Source of the DNA: Haliotis rufescens
Taxonomy: Eukaryota
Assembly: GCF_023055435.1 (NCBI RefSeq)
Contig: NW_025963846.1
Coordinates: forward strand, 14,880,001 to 14,944,000
Length of the DNA: 64,000 bases
Direction: 5' to 3'
Position numbers: made by a program. Positions 37,401-40,400 of the stretch are shown here, piece after piece; the stretch's first letter is position 1; each line of letters opens with the position of its first letter.

Positions 37401-40400
37401 GCTCACCCCTCCACGGGGGTCAGGATGTTGGGGTCAGATTCTTGTGTATTTATAACTGGCTGACACTGATGGACAATCATATTCAGCTTCTGCCTCCAAC
37501 AGACAGGTCTATTGCAGCCTCAGTGATTTGTAGCATCGTTATCCTGTGTTGTTGGAGCGTTCTCGACAACTGTAAAACTTTTACTTACTATCCTTTTCAA
37601 TTGAGTCTTAGGTTTTTCAAAACTTCCTAGTAGCCATGGACGCCATCAAGAAGAAGATGCTCTCAATGAAGTCCGACAAGGACAACGCACTTGAAAAATC
37701 CGAGATGTTGGAACAGCAACTTAAAGACATTGAGGAACAGAAGGCTAAGGTTGAGGAGGACCTCCACGATCTCCAGAAGAAATTCTCCAACCTCGAGGTA
37801 GAATTTGACAACGTCAACGAACAGCACCAGGAGGCAAATGCCAAGTTGGAGACATCTACCAAGAGAGTCACCGAGATGGAACAAGAGGTCAGTAGTACGT
37901 CCTCCAGGGCTACCATGTTGGAGGAAGATCTGGAGAGGTGCGAGGAGAAACTGCAGACAGCCACTATCAAGCTGGAGGAGGCATCCAAGGCTCAGGATGA
38001 GACGGAGAGGTCACGCAAAGTTCTGGAGAATAAGAGCAGTGCTGACGATGAGCGCATCGATCAGCTAGAAACTCAACTGAAGGACGCTAAGTATATCGCC
38101 GAGGAAGCTGAAAGAAAGTATGACGAAACTGCCCGTAAGTTAGCCATGACAGATTCCGATCTGGAGCGAGCTGTCACCCGTTTTGAGGCTGCTGAAACCA
38201 AATCCATTGAACTGGATGAAGAGTTGAAGGTCGTTGGAAACAACGTGAAGTCCCTTCAGATCAGCGAGCAGGAAGCTTGCCAAAGAGAGGAGACTTTCGA
38301 GGAGACCGTCAAAGACCTGACCCACAAGCTCAAGGAGTCGGAGCACCGCGCTGTGGAGGCTGAGAGGACAGTGTCCAAACTCCAGAAGGACATCGACCGC
38401 CTGGACGATGAGCTACTTACAGAGAAGGAGAAGAACAAGGCCATCCATGACGAGTTGGACCAGACATTCGCCGAGCTCGCCGGATACTAACTGTGAATGT
38501 GTACTACAGACAGGAAACTTGCCGGTGTTCTTCAAATCTCCAGTGGATATTTTCTGTAATGTGTCACTGATCTGTGAGACCCTGTGCTCAAACGGTAAAC
38601 ACTTTTTGTCTACTTTGTGTGATGCTTGTAATTGTCATCTCATGAGTCAGTGATGCCAGTGATTGCTTGCTCGGATACAATGGATACCACTGGAGGCCTG
38701 GTTGAACACTCAAGTTTATACTTGAAACTTCGAATCTCACATGAACAATATCAAGCTTTCTTTGATTTTAAATGTACCCATCCACTGCTGAATGTTGTAA
38801 ATAGCCAAAATTGTATCAACTCATTACAACTATTTATTATTTATACAGTAAGTCTACAGACATTCAACTGTTCATTTGTGAATAAAACCTGAAAGTCCAT
38901 GATACAAGTTGTTCATATATTGAATACGACCTGCCACCCAGTGTGACACCATTACTGTTCACAGCACCTTTTCACACACACGTGGCTTTTGTAGTTTCCA
39001 GGAAGTACTAACGGAAATCAATTTCTCGTCGGTGAGTGCATATTGTCTGCCGTTGTCAGCAACTTTACTGCAATATGCTGGATGTTATCCCCATCAGGTA
39101 AACCAGCGTGTAAGTTATTTTTTGGTCGGTAAATAAATAATTCATTGTTATATTTTAATTACTGTTTTAAGAAATCAAGTCAATGTTGCTGTTGTTTCTA
39201 TTACTTAACTACAGTAAACTACGGTTATAACGAACACGCTTATAACGAACTGACGGATATAACGAACTTACTTTTGGGTCCCGACTATTTGCTGTTGTTA
39301 TACTGTATATATGCTGATAACGAACTACGGTTATAACGAACTAAAATTAGTAGTCCCTTTGAGTTCGTTATAACCGTAGTTTACTGTATACTACTTTATA
39401 TCTTTACTGAATATAAGTTTTTTAAATCTTGTCTAGAAACAAACTGGTCACTATTTTATAGGAACACTGTTTTTTAAGGAACACTCTTGTGGTCTGGAAA
39501 CTTCACTTTGAGTTGTGGTATGAGTAATTTCAAAAACATATTTAATATTTGACTCCAAAAACCAGAAACCAGAACATCGAGTATGTCATAACAGGGCATA
39601 TCTACAAAATATATCTGTCAGACAAGCACGTGTGGACACATGTACGTGACTTCAGAATACCCGATTGTGCTCATAGTGCATTAGTATTCCAATAATTATT
39701 ATTGAGATTATAACTGGGAATTTTCAATATAGTTTATAAGATAAATGGGGGCATGGAAATCTAAGTACAATGAACATATAATATTACAGAGCGTACTTGC
39801 TGTTATCAACGACTTCAATGAAGAGAACGCTCACATTCATCTTCCCAGCCAGTTTAAGGGCTCAGTAAAGCTTTCAAAATGTTTTATAGTAGACATGGTG
39901 GACGTTTCCGAATTTAAGGCTTCAGTGACAAAATCCCTTGTTTTGCAGGCCAACAATTTACTTTCCTTTGCATGTGTTTTTGACGGGTGCCACCGGTGCG
40001 GCAGAATACGCTTATCTTTTCGCGAACACAGGGGATCATCACTATTTGATAGTCATTCAAAAAACATTTTTATGATATTGTCGGAATCGCACAATGCAGA
40101 TTTCTTCTGATTATGGCAAGGGTTTTGTCGCTGTCATTGAACTTGTGGGTATTTAATATGCATTTCATGGCGCGCACGGAATGCCTCCCTGCCAACGCTT
40201 AGAGTACCCACCTTCAATAGAAACACACATAGAATTGAAAAAAGAGTATTCTTGTGATATATAGTTATGCATTAGGTTAAAGATATATATAATTCAAATG
40301 AAGCCCAGAAAAAATGCTGAATTTGAGGGCTGAGCTGAGGCAATCTAGACTTGCCAAATCATTCTAGGTTCGAGTTAGATTCACTTTTTATTTTGCTCTC

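What the first reader, a model, noticed from the sequence alone, without database searches (positions are those of the whole stretch)
38491..38910. Three-way mosaic: CDS A~B, 3'UTR A~C, promoter B~C
Seen: A and B proteins differ at 3 residues while C differs from A at 29. The 400-nt 3'UTR of A is nearly identical to that of C (about 51975..52399), whereas B diverges right after the stop. The 5' flanks of B (45416..45720) and C (53255..53590) align well, whereas that of A barely does. No single duplication tree explains this. Inference: repeated gene conversion shuffling promoter, coding and 3'UTR modules, perhaps aided by the inverted A/B arrangement. It also argues that A and B are not mere haplotypes.
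Basis: partly seen in the sequence, partly recalled or inferred. Interest (0 to 1): 0.7.

Follow-up and report, generated by a model that had tools for sequence, protein, structure and literature searches.

The report
Recombined abalone tropomyosin-like gene triplet
Three neighbouring intronless tropomyosin-like genes each share a different part with a different partner, which is an ordinary footprint of recombination between gene copies, most simply one swap of tails between two inverted copies plus copy-correction of their coding regions.

Summary
The window carries three intact 284-codon, single-exon tropomyosin-like genes: A 37636-38490 (+), B 44561-45415 (-) and C 52400-53254 (-). A and B differ at 3 residues, A and C at 29. 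The coding regions pair A with B (98.8%, Ks 0.04). The 3'UTR pairs A with C (93% over 446 nt). The 5' flank pairs B with C (88.6%). The switch of pairing between coding region and proximal 3'UTR is highly significant (Fisher p=3.6e-10; 0 of 10000 permutations).

Three corrections apply:
- B keeps 75-80% homology for 73 nt after the stop codon.
- A's 5' flank is a real but old homologue of C's.
- The A-C 3'UTR is patchy, with two near-identical blocks in a background of about 18% divergence.

Coding-region-confined gene conversion between the inverted A/B repeat is well supported. The flank pattern, however, is reciprocal: A has an old 5' flank and a young 3' flank, and B has the reverse. One crossover inside the inverted coding repeats, inverting the 6.1-kb spacer, explains this better than several module-wise conversions. 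An assembler mis-pairing through the repeat would look identical and is not excluded. This is a new example of a known kind of event and of low general interest.

The parts
37636..38490 (+). Gene A: single-exon 284-codon tropomyosin-like ORF
   Evidence: ORF; PF00261, E 2.3e-75; 10 nt and 3 aa from B, 61 nt and 29 aa from C
37436..37635 (+). A 5' flank: old, strongly diverged homologue of the B/C promoter and 5'UTR. TATA-like TTTATAAC at 37449 and the motif CATATTCAG at 37478-37486.
   Evidence: Global alignment to C's 5' flank: z=6.9, 0 of 1000 shuffles, 117 of 173 aligned positions identical; 17 control chunks reach at most -17.5 against 6.5 observed. The motif occurs 3 times in the window against 0.84 expected, two of them at the same place in A and B. 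TATA-like box 29-30 nt upstream in all three genes.
38491..38936 (+). A 3'UTR, homologous to C's 3'UTR (51952-52399); AATAAA at 38881
   Evidence: 93% overall; homology ends about 50 nt after AATAAA, with no A-rich tract there
38382..38518 (+). 137-nt block (CDS nt 747 to UTR +28) identical between A and C; its CDS part is also identical in B
   Evidence: a run this long is reached in 7 of 5000 permutations; 0 synonymous differences in codons 249-284
38598..38844 (+). 247-nt 3'UTR block (+108..+354) with 3 A-C mismatches, set in a background of about 18% divergence
   Evidence: a 250-nt window this clean is reached in 4 of 5000 permutations; no unusual RNA fold (z=+0.89)
37626..38493 (.). Left arm of the inverted repeat (868 nt, 99% complementary to 44558-45425)
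44558..45425 (.). Right arm of the inverted repeat
38491..44560 (.). Segment between the two coding repeats. Its inversion would swap the 3' flanks of A and B. It contains the N run 42325-42607.
   Evidence: The inversion is inferred from the reciprocal flank pattern and was not observed.
44561..45415 (-). Gene B: single-exon 284-codon tropomyosin-like ORF
44488..44560 (-). B proximal 3'UTR: 73 nt, 75-80% identical to A and C, after which homology is lost (own AATAAA at +491, about 44070)
45416..45717 (-). B 5' flank, 88.6% identical to C's 5' flank (53255-53586); TATAAAAC at 45568, CATATTCAG at 45538-45530
45718..48336 (.). B-specific block of about 2.6 kb inserted at -302, flanked by a 10-12-nt imperfect direct repeat; B-C upstream homology resumes behind it (48331-48655 ~ 53579-53898)
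52400..53254 (-). Gene C: single-exon 284-codon tropomyosin-like ORF. It is the only one of the three whose exact protein is in the public collection.
   Evidence: 6 aa from Haliotis cracherodii XP_071082741.1
51952..52399 (-). C 3'UTR (AATAAA at about 52008), homologous to A's; it abuts a dispersed MITE-like repeat at 51597-51937
53255..53898 (-). C 5' flank and further upstream sequence collinear with B's upstream region; TATAAAAC at 53437, CATATTCA at 53407

Best explanation
Three DNA-level paralogues of an intronless tropomyosin-like gene have exchanged sequence by homologous recombination between non-allelic copies. The proposed history has four steps.

1. An older paralogue O carried the 5' flank now on A and the 3' flank now on B. 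It lay inverted next to a younger pair of direct duplicates, S and C. S and C share the promoter, at least 0.6 kb of upstream sequence, the coding region and a 446-nt 3'UTR.
2. The coding regions of O and S were homogenised by gene conversion. The tract is confined to the ORF, probably because only there had selection kept enough identity for heteroduplex formation. This produced today's 868-nt, 99% inverted repeat.
3. One reciprocal crossover inside that inverted repeat inverted the 6.1-kb spacer and swapped the 3' parts. This gave A = O 5' flank + ORF + S 3'UTR, and B = S 5' flank + ORF + O 3' flank.
4. Short conversion tracts later made the ORF end through UTR +28, and UTR +108..+354, nearly identical between A and C.

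Shown here: the three segment pairings, the ORF-bounded A-B identity, the patchiness of the A-C UTR, and the reciprocity of the flanks.
Inferred: the crossover and inversion, the direction of conversion, and the order of events.
My odds: about 0.8 that a real recombination mosaic is present, and about 0.45 that the flank swap came from a single crossover.
For: A-B conversion confined to the ORF:
- CDS 845/855 identical, Ks 0.042 (7 synonymous and 3 non-synonymous differences).
- The adjoining UTR +1..+75 is only 52/69 identical, and the 5' flank is at random level.
- The pairing switches at the stop codon (Fisher p=3.6e-10; max chi-square 0 of 10000 permutations).
- A recent ORF-only duplication is excluded. 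B's +1..+73 is homologous (0 of 1000 shuffles) yet 25% diverged from A.

Reciprocity of the flanks, measured against C:
- 5' flank: B 88.6%; A random level in the three-way alignment, though 117 of 173 aligned positions are identical in a significant global alignment (z=6.9, 0 of 1000).
- 3' flank: A 93% over 446 nt; B 80% over 73 nt, then nothing.

Geometry: A and B are convergent inverted repeats, 868 nt at 99%, with a 6064-nt spacer. A crossover in such repeats leaves both genes intact and swaps their 3' ends.

B and C are direct DNA duplicates:
- Their collinear upstream homology continues past a 2.6-kb insertion in B.
- In a tandem duplication the downstream copy (B) should keep the ancestral 3' flank. 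B lacks it after +73, and the missing UTR sits on its inverted neighbour A.

Ages are roughly consistent with one S-C duplication:
- Ks of C against A and B is 0.21-0.24.
- The A-C UTR outside the two blocks is 146/178 identical.
- The B-C distal upstream region is about 72% identical and the proximal 5' flank 88.6%.

Conversion cannot easily move the flanks, because no homology exists beyond +446 (A-C) or beyond +75 (B) to end a tract.

Precedents:
- Inverted paralogue repeats homogenised by conversion and driving re-inversion: PMC9731477, abstract.
- Maintained inverted paralogue pairs in C. elegans: PMC1803023, abstract.
- ORF-limited identity with diverged flanks in direct and inverted paralogues: PMC3966223, passages.
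Against: - No second orientation, orthologous locus or read evidence was available, so the inversion rests on parsimony alone.
- The supposedly old 3' flank on B is 75-80% identical to A and C for 73 nt. That is closer than the old 5' flank on A, so an extra early conversion tract or local constraint must be assumed.
- Divergences that should date one S-C duplication are unequal: Ks 0.24, 5' flank JC 0.124, whole 3'UTR JC 0.075. Constraint on the flanks or the later conversion blocks must be invoked.
- No homology was found downstream of the UTRs that would mark A's 3' flank as S's original flank.
- A lies on a 5.5-kb piece (36802-42324) bounded by N runs on both sides, and one N run lies in the spacer. 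If these are true gaps, A's orientation is less secure, and a repeat-induced mis-pairing would give the same reciprocal pattern.
- The exact A and B proteins are absent from the 15-billion-protein collection while C's is present. Only C has independent annotation support.
Confidence: 0.5

Rival explanations
1. One reading: several separate non-reciprocal gene conversions each overwrote one module (promoter, coding region, 3'UTR), with no crossover or inversion.
For: - Conversion clearly acts in this family: the ORF-bounded A-B identity and the patchy near-identical A-C blocks of 137 and 247 nt.
- Unequal divergences fit events at different times: A-B Ks 0.042, A-C UTR 0.075, B-C 5' flank 0.124, C against A/B Ks 0.24.
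- Chimaeric UTR and coding histories produced by conversion are documented: PMC1274310, abstract.
Against: - A conversion tract needs homology at both ends. A-C homology stops at about +446 and does not resume, and B has none beyond +75.
- Two independent events would have to produce an exactly reciprocal old/young flank pattern in two adjacent inverted genes.
- B-C 5' similarity is explained by their being direct duplicates with collinear upstream sequence. No promoter conversion is needed.
Confidence: 0.2
2. No flank exchange at all. C-like DNA was copied twice with different end points, or flanks were later replaced by insertions and deletions. A and B then each retain a different subset of the ancestral flanks, and only the A-B coding regions were later homogenised by conversion.
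For: - C carries both flank types, and C is the copy with an orthologue in another abalone species.
- In UTR +29..+75 the three copies are roughly equidistant: A-C 41/47, B-C 35/43, A-B 32/43.
- Site patterns there are 7:4:1. This count is derived by subtracting the +1..+28 sites from the totals, and the chi-square p of about 0.1 was computed by hand, not by a call.
- Insertions are frequent here: a 2.6-kb block in B's promoter, a SINE with a target-site duplication, and a MITE-like repeat at C's UTR end.
- Partial duplications are common; this caveat is raised in PMC3966223, passages.
Against: - A's 5' flank is neither foreign DNA nor a copy of the same age. It is a collinear homologue of C's promoter and 5'UTR that is far more diverged than the rest. 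A is therefore chimeric in age.
- In a tandem duplication the downstream copy B should keep the full ancestral UTR, and it does not.
- B's distal UTR shows at most marginal residual similarity (19 of 500 shuffles reach it).
Confidence: 0.12
3. Assembly artefact. The assembler paired the wrong exits through the near-identical coding repeat, or mis-oriented the piece between the two copies. The real genes would then be A's 5' flank + ORF + B's 3' flank, and B's 5' flank + ORF + the A/C-type UTR.
For: - The last site that tells A from B in the ORF is nt 719 and the next is at UTR +2. These 137 nt are identical, and identical runs of 212, 146 and 108 nt occur inside the ORF.
- An N run lies in the spacer, and A's piece is bounded by N runs on both sides.
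- The expected product of such an error is exactly a reciprocal flank swap.
- The A and B proteins are not in the public protein collection.
Against: - Each gene is read through continuously with both flanks, with no N inside or next to the ORFs.
- Ten A/B-distinguishing sites are spaced at most 212 nt apart, so read pairs or long reads could phase them.
- Assemblers usually break at unresolved repeats rather than join through them.
- Even if this rival is true, the ORF-limited A-B conversion and the A/C-type near-identical blocks remain.
Confidence: 0.13
4. No exchange of any kind. Purifying selection alone keeps the coding regions and parts of the UTRs similar.
For: Ka/Ks is low: 0.10 for A-B and 0.22 for A-C and B-C. 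The C-terminal 36 residues are conserved in the family.
Against: - Selection on the protein does not hold synonymous sites. A-B Ks is 0.042 and C against A/B is 0.24 in the same codons.
- The closest partner of A changes from B to C at the stop codon.
- The conserved UTR block shows no special RNA structure.
Confidence: 0.02

Closest known systems
Flip/flop region of Saccharomyces chromosome XIV (PMC9731477; abstract read)
   Same: Two paralogous gene copies form an inverted repeat that is kept nearly identical by homogenisation. Recombination between the arms inverts the segment between them.
   Different: There the repeat is 4 kb and the segment 24 kb, and both orientations were observed within and between species. 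Here the repeat is 0.87 kb (the ORF only) and the segment 6.1 kb. Only one orientation is seen, and the inversion is inferred from the reciprocal flank pattern.
ORF-limited concerted evolution of adjacent paralogues in Caenorhabditis, e.g. hsp16 modules, col-12/col-13, inverted hsp70 pairs (PMC3966223, passages; PMC1803023, abstract)
   Same: Near-identical coding regions with diverged flanks, in direct or inverted orientation, attributed to interlocus gene conversion.
   Different: Those cases concern pairs. Here a third copy (C) acts as a reference and shows that the two flanks of each converted gene differ in age, which adds a reciprocal exchange.
Chimaeric UTR/coding histories in mammalian BEX/WEX/GASP genes (PMC1274310; abstract read)
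   Same: UTR and coding region of one gene have independent histories because of conversion.
   Different: There a 5'UTR motif is homogenised among genes with diverged coding regions. Here the coding region is homogenised while the flanks differ.
Hybrid genes from crossover between paralogues (haemoglobin Lepore / anti-Lepore; recalled, not checked in any call)
   Same: A crossover within homologous coding sequence joins the 5' part and promoter of one paralogue to the 3' part of another.
   Different: Lepore arises between direct repeats and changes copy number. Between inverted repeats the product is an inversion that leaves both genes intact.

Membership tests
Tropomyosin (Pfam PF00261) | Profile match above the curated cut-off over most of the protein | tested here: met
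   A 253.6, B 254.7 and C 232.3 bits against a cut-off of 38.6; residues 45-283 (A, B) or 56-283 (C) match profile positions up to 241 of 242
Tropomyosin (Pfam PF00261) | Canonical 284-residue length with conserved N- and C-terminal overlap sequences | tested here: met
   All three are 284 aa. M1, A3, I4, K5, K6, M8 and F278 are invariant in a 9-sequence alignment. Actin binding was not tested.
Interlocus (non-allelic) gene conversion | Tract of near-identity between paralogues, bounded by homologous but much more diverged sequence | tested here: met
   A-B: CDS 845/855 against UTR +1..+75 52/69; B's UTR homology is significant (0 of 1000 shuffles)
Interlocus (non-allelic) gene conversion | Statistically supported change of closest relative along the alignment | tested here: met
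   Fisher p=3.6e-10; maximum chi-square reached in 0 of 10000 permutations. A-C blocks: 7 of 5000 and 4 of 5000.
Interlocus (non-allelic) gene conversion | Paralogues group by species rather than by locus when orthologues are added | not testable with these tools
   No eukaryotic genome DNA collection was available. Only one related protein (P0001, C-type) exists in the protein sets.
Inversion by recombination between inverted repeats | Highly identical inverted repeats bounding the segment | tested here: met
   Arms 37626-38493 and 44558-45425, 868 nt, 99%, 6064 nt apart
Inversion by recombination between inverted repeats | Reciprocal exchange of the sequences outside and inside the repeats, relative to a reference copy | tested here: met
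   Against C: A has an old 5' and a young 3' flank; B has a young 5' and an old 3' flank
Inversion by recombination between inverted repeats | Both orientations seen in individuals or related species, or synteny showing the ancestral orientation | not testable with these tools
   No reads, second assembly or orthologous DNA were available
Retrocopies (processed gene copies) as the way A, B and C were copied from each other | Homology limited to the transcript, with a poly(A) remnant at the 3' end and no shared promoter | tested here: not met
   B and C share the TATA-containing promoter and at least 0.6 kb upstream. There is no A-rich tract where A-C homology ends. The intronless state of the family as a whole may still go back to an older retrocopy; this was not tested.
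Uncollapsed haplotypes (haplotigs) | Copies share their flanks and lie as alternative versions of one locus | tested here: not met
   A and B are inverted on one stretch, with 5' flanks at random-level identity and 3' flanks unalignable beyond +75

The most novel reading that the evidence does not exclude
The A/B inverted repeat bounds a 6.1-kb segment that flips recurrently and is polymorphic in abalone populations. Each flip would reciprocally swap two very different 3'UTRs between two near-identical tropomyosin-like genes driven by different promoters. One is a 446-nt conserved UTR with poly(A) signal at +391; the other is unrelated, with its signal at +491. The result would be a recombinational switch of post-transcriptional control, kept alive by ORF-limited conversion.
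Probability: 0.08. Interest if true: 0.5.

Novelty: new member of a known kind. Interest (0 to 1): 0.25.

Why it matters
It is a clean small example showing that promoter, coding region and 3'UTR of neighbouring paralogues can have different partners. It also shows that a third copy can separate two processes: reciprocal exchange (crossover and inversion) and non-reciprocal conversion.

In practice it warns annotators and phylogeneticists working on abalone muscle or allergen genes in three ways. Coding-sequence trees of these tropomyosin-like genes will understate their age. A and B cannot be told apart by most short reads. The orientation of the 6-kb spacer needs long-read confirmation.

It does not open a long-standing question. 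Conversion and inversion between inverted paralogues are well documented.

Tried and rejected
- Retroposition as the way the copies were made. Rejected: B and C share a promoter and upstream DNA, and no poly(A) remnant is present.
- A recent ORF-only duplication of A/B, the caveat raised in PMC3966223. Rejected: B's +1..+73 is homologous yet 25% diverged from A.
- Search for extended homology downstream of the UTRs that could show whose 3' flank is original. Sensitive BLAST and Smith-Waterman found only dispersed repeats.
- RNA structure as the reason for the conserved 247-nt UTR block. z=+0.89, and 164 of 200 shuffles fold at least as well. Rfam at gathering level gave only two tRNA-like hits, both inside SINEs.
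- GC-biased conversion signature. At 55 A=B≠C coding sites, 21 are GC-richer in A/B, 25 are GC-richer in C and 9 are neutral. GC3 is 0.665, 0.651 and 0.665. No signal.
- Polarising the 29 A-C differences with distant tropomyosins. The outgroups are only 46-53% identical, so this gives only a qualitative impression that several C states are derived. It is not used as evidence.
- The closest relative P0001 is C-type at 25 of the 29 positions. The A/B-versus-C coding split therefore predates that species split.
- No genes were found in the spacer. Stop-to-stop ORFs of 80 aa or more were listed. Only one of them, the 163-aa ORF at 40683-41174, was scanned against Pfam, and it matched no family.
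- Literature. 'tropomyosin'+'Haliotis'+'intronless' gave 0 papers. 'tropomyosin'+'intronless'+'mollusc' gave 1 paper, on IAP genes by its title. 'tropomyosin/abalone/gene duplication/paralog' gave 278 papers holding 3 of the 4 terms; none of the 15 listed concerns abalone tropomyosin paralogues by title.
- No spliced gene model was involved. All three ORFs are single exons, so no exon-by-exon or joined search arose.
- The window is not taken for human.
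Full report
WHAT IS THERE

The window holds three intact single-exon ORFs of 284 codons: A 37636..38490 (+), B 44561..45415 (-) and C 52400..53254 (-). tblastn with A finds no further copy or fragment; a fourth hit at E=1.2 is noise. All three are clear tropomyosin-family proteins (PF00261, E 2.3e-75, 1.1e-75 and 7.4e-69).

The nearest protein among 273 hits is 'tropomyosin-like' XP_071082741.1 of Haliotis cracherodii (P0001), 90% identical to A. All other hits are at most 69% identical over partial lengths. 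A search of 1.84 billion representatives again gave P0001 at 90%, and nothing above 71% (that hit a 100-aa fragment; most are 63% or lower).

P0001 differs from C at 6 residues, from A at 27 and from B at 26. It carries the C state at 25 of the 29 positions where A and C differ. C's exact protein is in the public collection. A's and B's are not. I therefore take the window to be abalone-like DNA. This is an inference from the protein matches, and the window is not human. C is the copy with a recognised orthologue. No spliced model was needed, because all three ORFs are uninterrupted.

CHECK OF THE OBSERVATION

The protein counts are exact: A-B 3, A-C 29 and B-C 28 differences.

Pairwise BLAST of the oriented loci shows three different extents of homology:
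- A-B from -10 to +73, 96.7%.
- A-C from -13 to +446, 92.5%.
- B-C from -302/-332 to +73, 87.7%.

By segment:
- 5' flank: B-C 249/281 identical, with 37- and 7-nt indels. A against either is about 43%.
- CDS: A-B 845/855, A-C 794/855, B-C 796/855.
- B aligns to A and C for only 73 nt after the stop (52/69 and 55/69). Beyond that it is no better than shuffles (156 and 209 of 300 shuffles reach the score).

The change of partner is not chance. Of 88 gap-free variable sites in the core that aligns in all three, the CDS has 55 A=B, 4 A=C and 6 B=C sites. The proximal UTR has 1, 13 and 4. Fisher p=3.6e-10. The maximum chi-square break falls between CDS nt 746 and UTR +14, and 0 of 10000 permutations reach it.

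A and B cannot be haplotypes. They form an inverted repeat of 868 nt (99%), 6064 nt apart, with different flanks.

CORRECTIONS AND ADDITIONS

1. The A-C 3'UTR is 93% identical and strongly patchy, not 'nearly identical'. Mismatches number 0 in +1..+28, 12 in +29..+107, 3 in +108..+354 and 22 in +355..+446. The 137-nt mismatch-free run (CDS nt 747 to UTR +28) and the cleanest 250-nt window are reached in 7 and 4 of 5000 permutations. Outside these blocks A-C is 146/178 identical. That is close to the synonymous divergence of C from A and B (Ks 0.21-0.24).
2. The last 110 nt of the ORF are identical in all three genes apart from one site in C (nt 746). There are no synonymous differences in codons 249-284.
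3. B's first 73 UTR nucleotides are truly homologous (0 of 1000 shuffles).
4. A's 5' flank is not foreign. A global alignment of -200..-14 with C scores z=6.9 (0 of 1000 shuffles; 17 control chunks stay far below) and has 117 of 173 aligned positions identical.
5. All three genes have a TATA-like box 29-30 nt upstream of the word CATATTCA, at -158 (A), -123 (B) and -153 (C). The 9-mer CATATTCAG occurs only 3 times in the 64 kb against 0.84 expected, and two of those are at these sites in A and B. That a TATA box lies about 30 nt before an initiator is textbook knowledge (recalled). No transcript data were available.
6. B-C homology does not end at -302. Behind a B-specific 2.6-kb block (45718..~48336), flanked by a short imperfect direct repeat, it resumes: 48331-48655 aligns with 53579-53898. 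B and C are therefore direct DNA-level duplicates, not retrocopies of each other.
7. No A-rich tract marks the end of A-C homology.

HOW IT MOST LIKELY AROSE

Two things must be kept apart.

First, the A-B coding identity. Ks is 0.042, next to a homologous UTR that is 25% diverged and a 5' flank that is far older. A recent ORF-only duplication, the caveat raised in PMC3966223 (passages), fails because B's +1..+73 is homologous to the family yet not recently shared with A. Selection on the protein cannot hold synonymous sites. Non-allelic gene conversion confined to the ORF is therefore the supported mechanism. The coincidence of both tract ends with the ORF is best explained by the ORF being the only stretch similar enough for heteroduplex formation (inference).

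Second, the flanks. Measured against C, A has an old 5' flank and a young 3' flank, while B has a young 5' flank and an old 3' flank. The pattern is reciprocal.
- A and B are convergent inverted repeats. A single crossover within them inverts the 38491-44560 segment and swaps the 3' parts, leaving both genes intact.
- After undoing that one exchange there are two flank-consistent genes: an older paralogue O (A's 5' flank with B's 3' flank) and S (B's 5' flank with A's UTR). S is the direct duplicate of C. One tree ((S,C),O) then fits all segments.
- Conversion alone would need two independent events with this reciprocal outcome. Each would also have to end where no homology is detectable.
- A further argument: on the minus strand C lies upstream of B. 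The downstream copy of a tandem duplication should retain the ancestral 3' flank. B lacks it after +73, while its inverted neighbour A carries it.

The near-identical A-C blocks, and the ORF end that is identical in all three genes, look like later short conversion tracts. Constraint is the alternative, but the 247-nt block has no unusual fold (z=+0.89).

WEAKNESSES

- The inversion is inferred, not seen.
- B's 'old' UTR start is more similar to A and C than A's 'old' 5' flank is.
- The divergences that should date one S-C duplication differ: Ks 0.24, 5' flank 0.124, whole UTR 0.075. Constraint or the later blocks must be invoked.
- No downstream homology identifies whose 3' flank is original.
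- An assembler that paired the wrong exits of the repeat would produce the same reciprocal swap. The A/B-identical stretch at the ORF end is 137 nt. The spacer holds an N run (42325-42607). A sits on a 5.5-kb piece bounded by N runs on both sides. If these are real gaps, even the inverted orientation of A is less secure. Against the artefact: each gene is read continuously with both flanks, and ten distinguishing sites are spaced at most 212 nt apart.

My odds are as follows:

| Explanation | Probability |
|---|---|
| Crossover plus conversion | about 0.5 |
| Conversion only | 0.2 |
| Different duplication end points or flank turnover, plus ORF conversion | 0.12 |
| Assembly error | 0.13 |
| Selection only | 0.02 |

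COMPARISON WITH WHAT IS KNOWN

ORF-limited identity with diverged flanks in direct and inverted neighbouring paralogues is described for Caenorhabditis (PMC3966223, passages; PMC1803023, abstract).

Inverted paralogue repeats kept identical by homogenisation, and repeatedly re-inverting the DNA between them, are described for yeast chromosome XIV (PMC9731477, abstract).

Genes whose UTR and coding region have separate histories through conversion are described for BEX/WEX/GASP (PMC1274310, abstract). A preprint on mosaic divergence in tandem HMA4 paralogues appeared in a search listing only.

I found no paper on intronless or duplicated abalone tropomyosin-like genes. Subscription journals and supplementary files were not searchable.

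The finding is a new member of a known kind. It is tidy and useful as an annotation warning, but not surprising to a specialist.

VERDICT

The best explanation is ORF-confined conversion plus one crossover between inverted copies. Long reads and the orthologous region of other abalone genomes would settle both the artefact question and the question of crossover versus conversion.

Noticed in passing
window 45718-48336: A block of about 2.6 kb is present in B's upstream region but not in C's. It is inserted at -302 and flanked by a 10-12-nt imperfect direct repeat (ATAAGACGAT / ATAAAATACGAT). It separates B's proximal promoter from the upstream sequence that B shares with C.
   Followed up: partly
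window 46811-47092 (copies also near 19585, 23736, 49008, 55375, 59731): A dispersed element of about 280 nt. This copy is flanked by a perfect 14-nt target-site duplication (46798-46811 and 47103-47116), so it looks like a recent SINE-type insertion.
   Followed up: partly
window 7388-7560, 11512-11672, 17398-17558, 20044-20209, 32136-32302, 49466-49632, 54470-54634 and others: A dispersed repeat of about 165 nt, at least 10 copies at 87-98% identity. Two copies reach the Rfam tRNA gathering score (7484-7555 and 49557-49628), so it is probably a tRNA-derived SINE.
   Followed up: partly
window 51597-51937; related pieces at 28226-28597, 39981-40155, 43817-43941, 55774-55880: A MITE-like dispersed repeat that matches in both orientations. 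One copy abuts the end of C's 3'UTR, about 15 nt after A-C homology stops.
   Followed up: no
window 39212-39392: A short element just downstream of A with terminal inverted repeats of about 27 nt and internal repeats of the word ACGGTTATAACGAAC. It was seen by eye, looks like a small MITE, and was not analysed.
   Followed up: no
window 743-1806 and 25372-25650; flanks 1811-2401 ~ 25855-26476 and 2564-2883 ~ 26507-26812: A 26-nt satellite (41 copies, 88% matches) and a related 54-nt array 24 kb away lie next to segments that are 84% and 73% identical. This is a second local segmental duplication. The ORFs called across the first array are repeat artefacts.
   Followed up: partly
window 25944-26456 (-): A 170-aa ORF with a hydrophobic N-terminus and a PAN/apple domain (PF00024, E 2.9e-5, above the cut-off). 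It lies inside the duplicated segment noted above.
   Followed up: partly
window 36611-36801 and 42325-42607: Gene A lies on a 5.5-kb stretch bounded by N runs on both sides. If these are true assembly gaps, the orientation of A relative to B and C depends on scaffolding. The N runs were not filled or looked up.
   Followed up: no
genes A and B (37636-38490, 44561-45415): The exact A and B proteins are absent from the 15-billion-protein collection, whereas C's is present. No other protein over 70% identical to A was found apart from the C-type cluster. A and B seem to be unannotated everywhere.
   Followed up: partly
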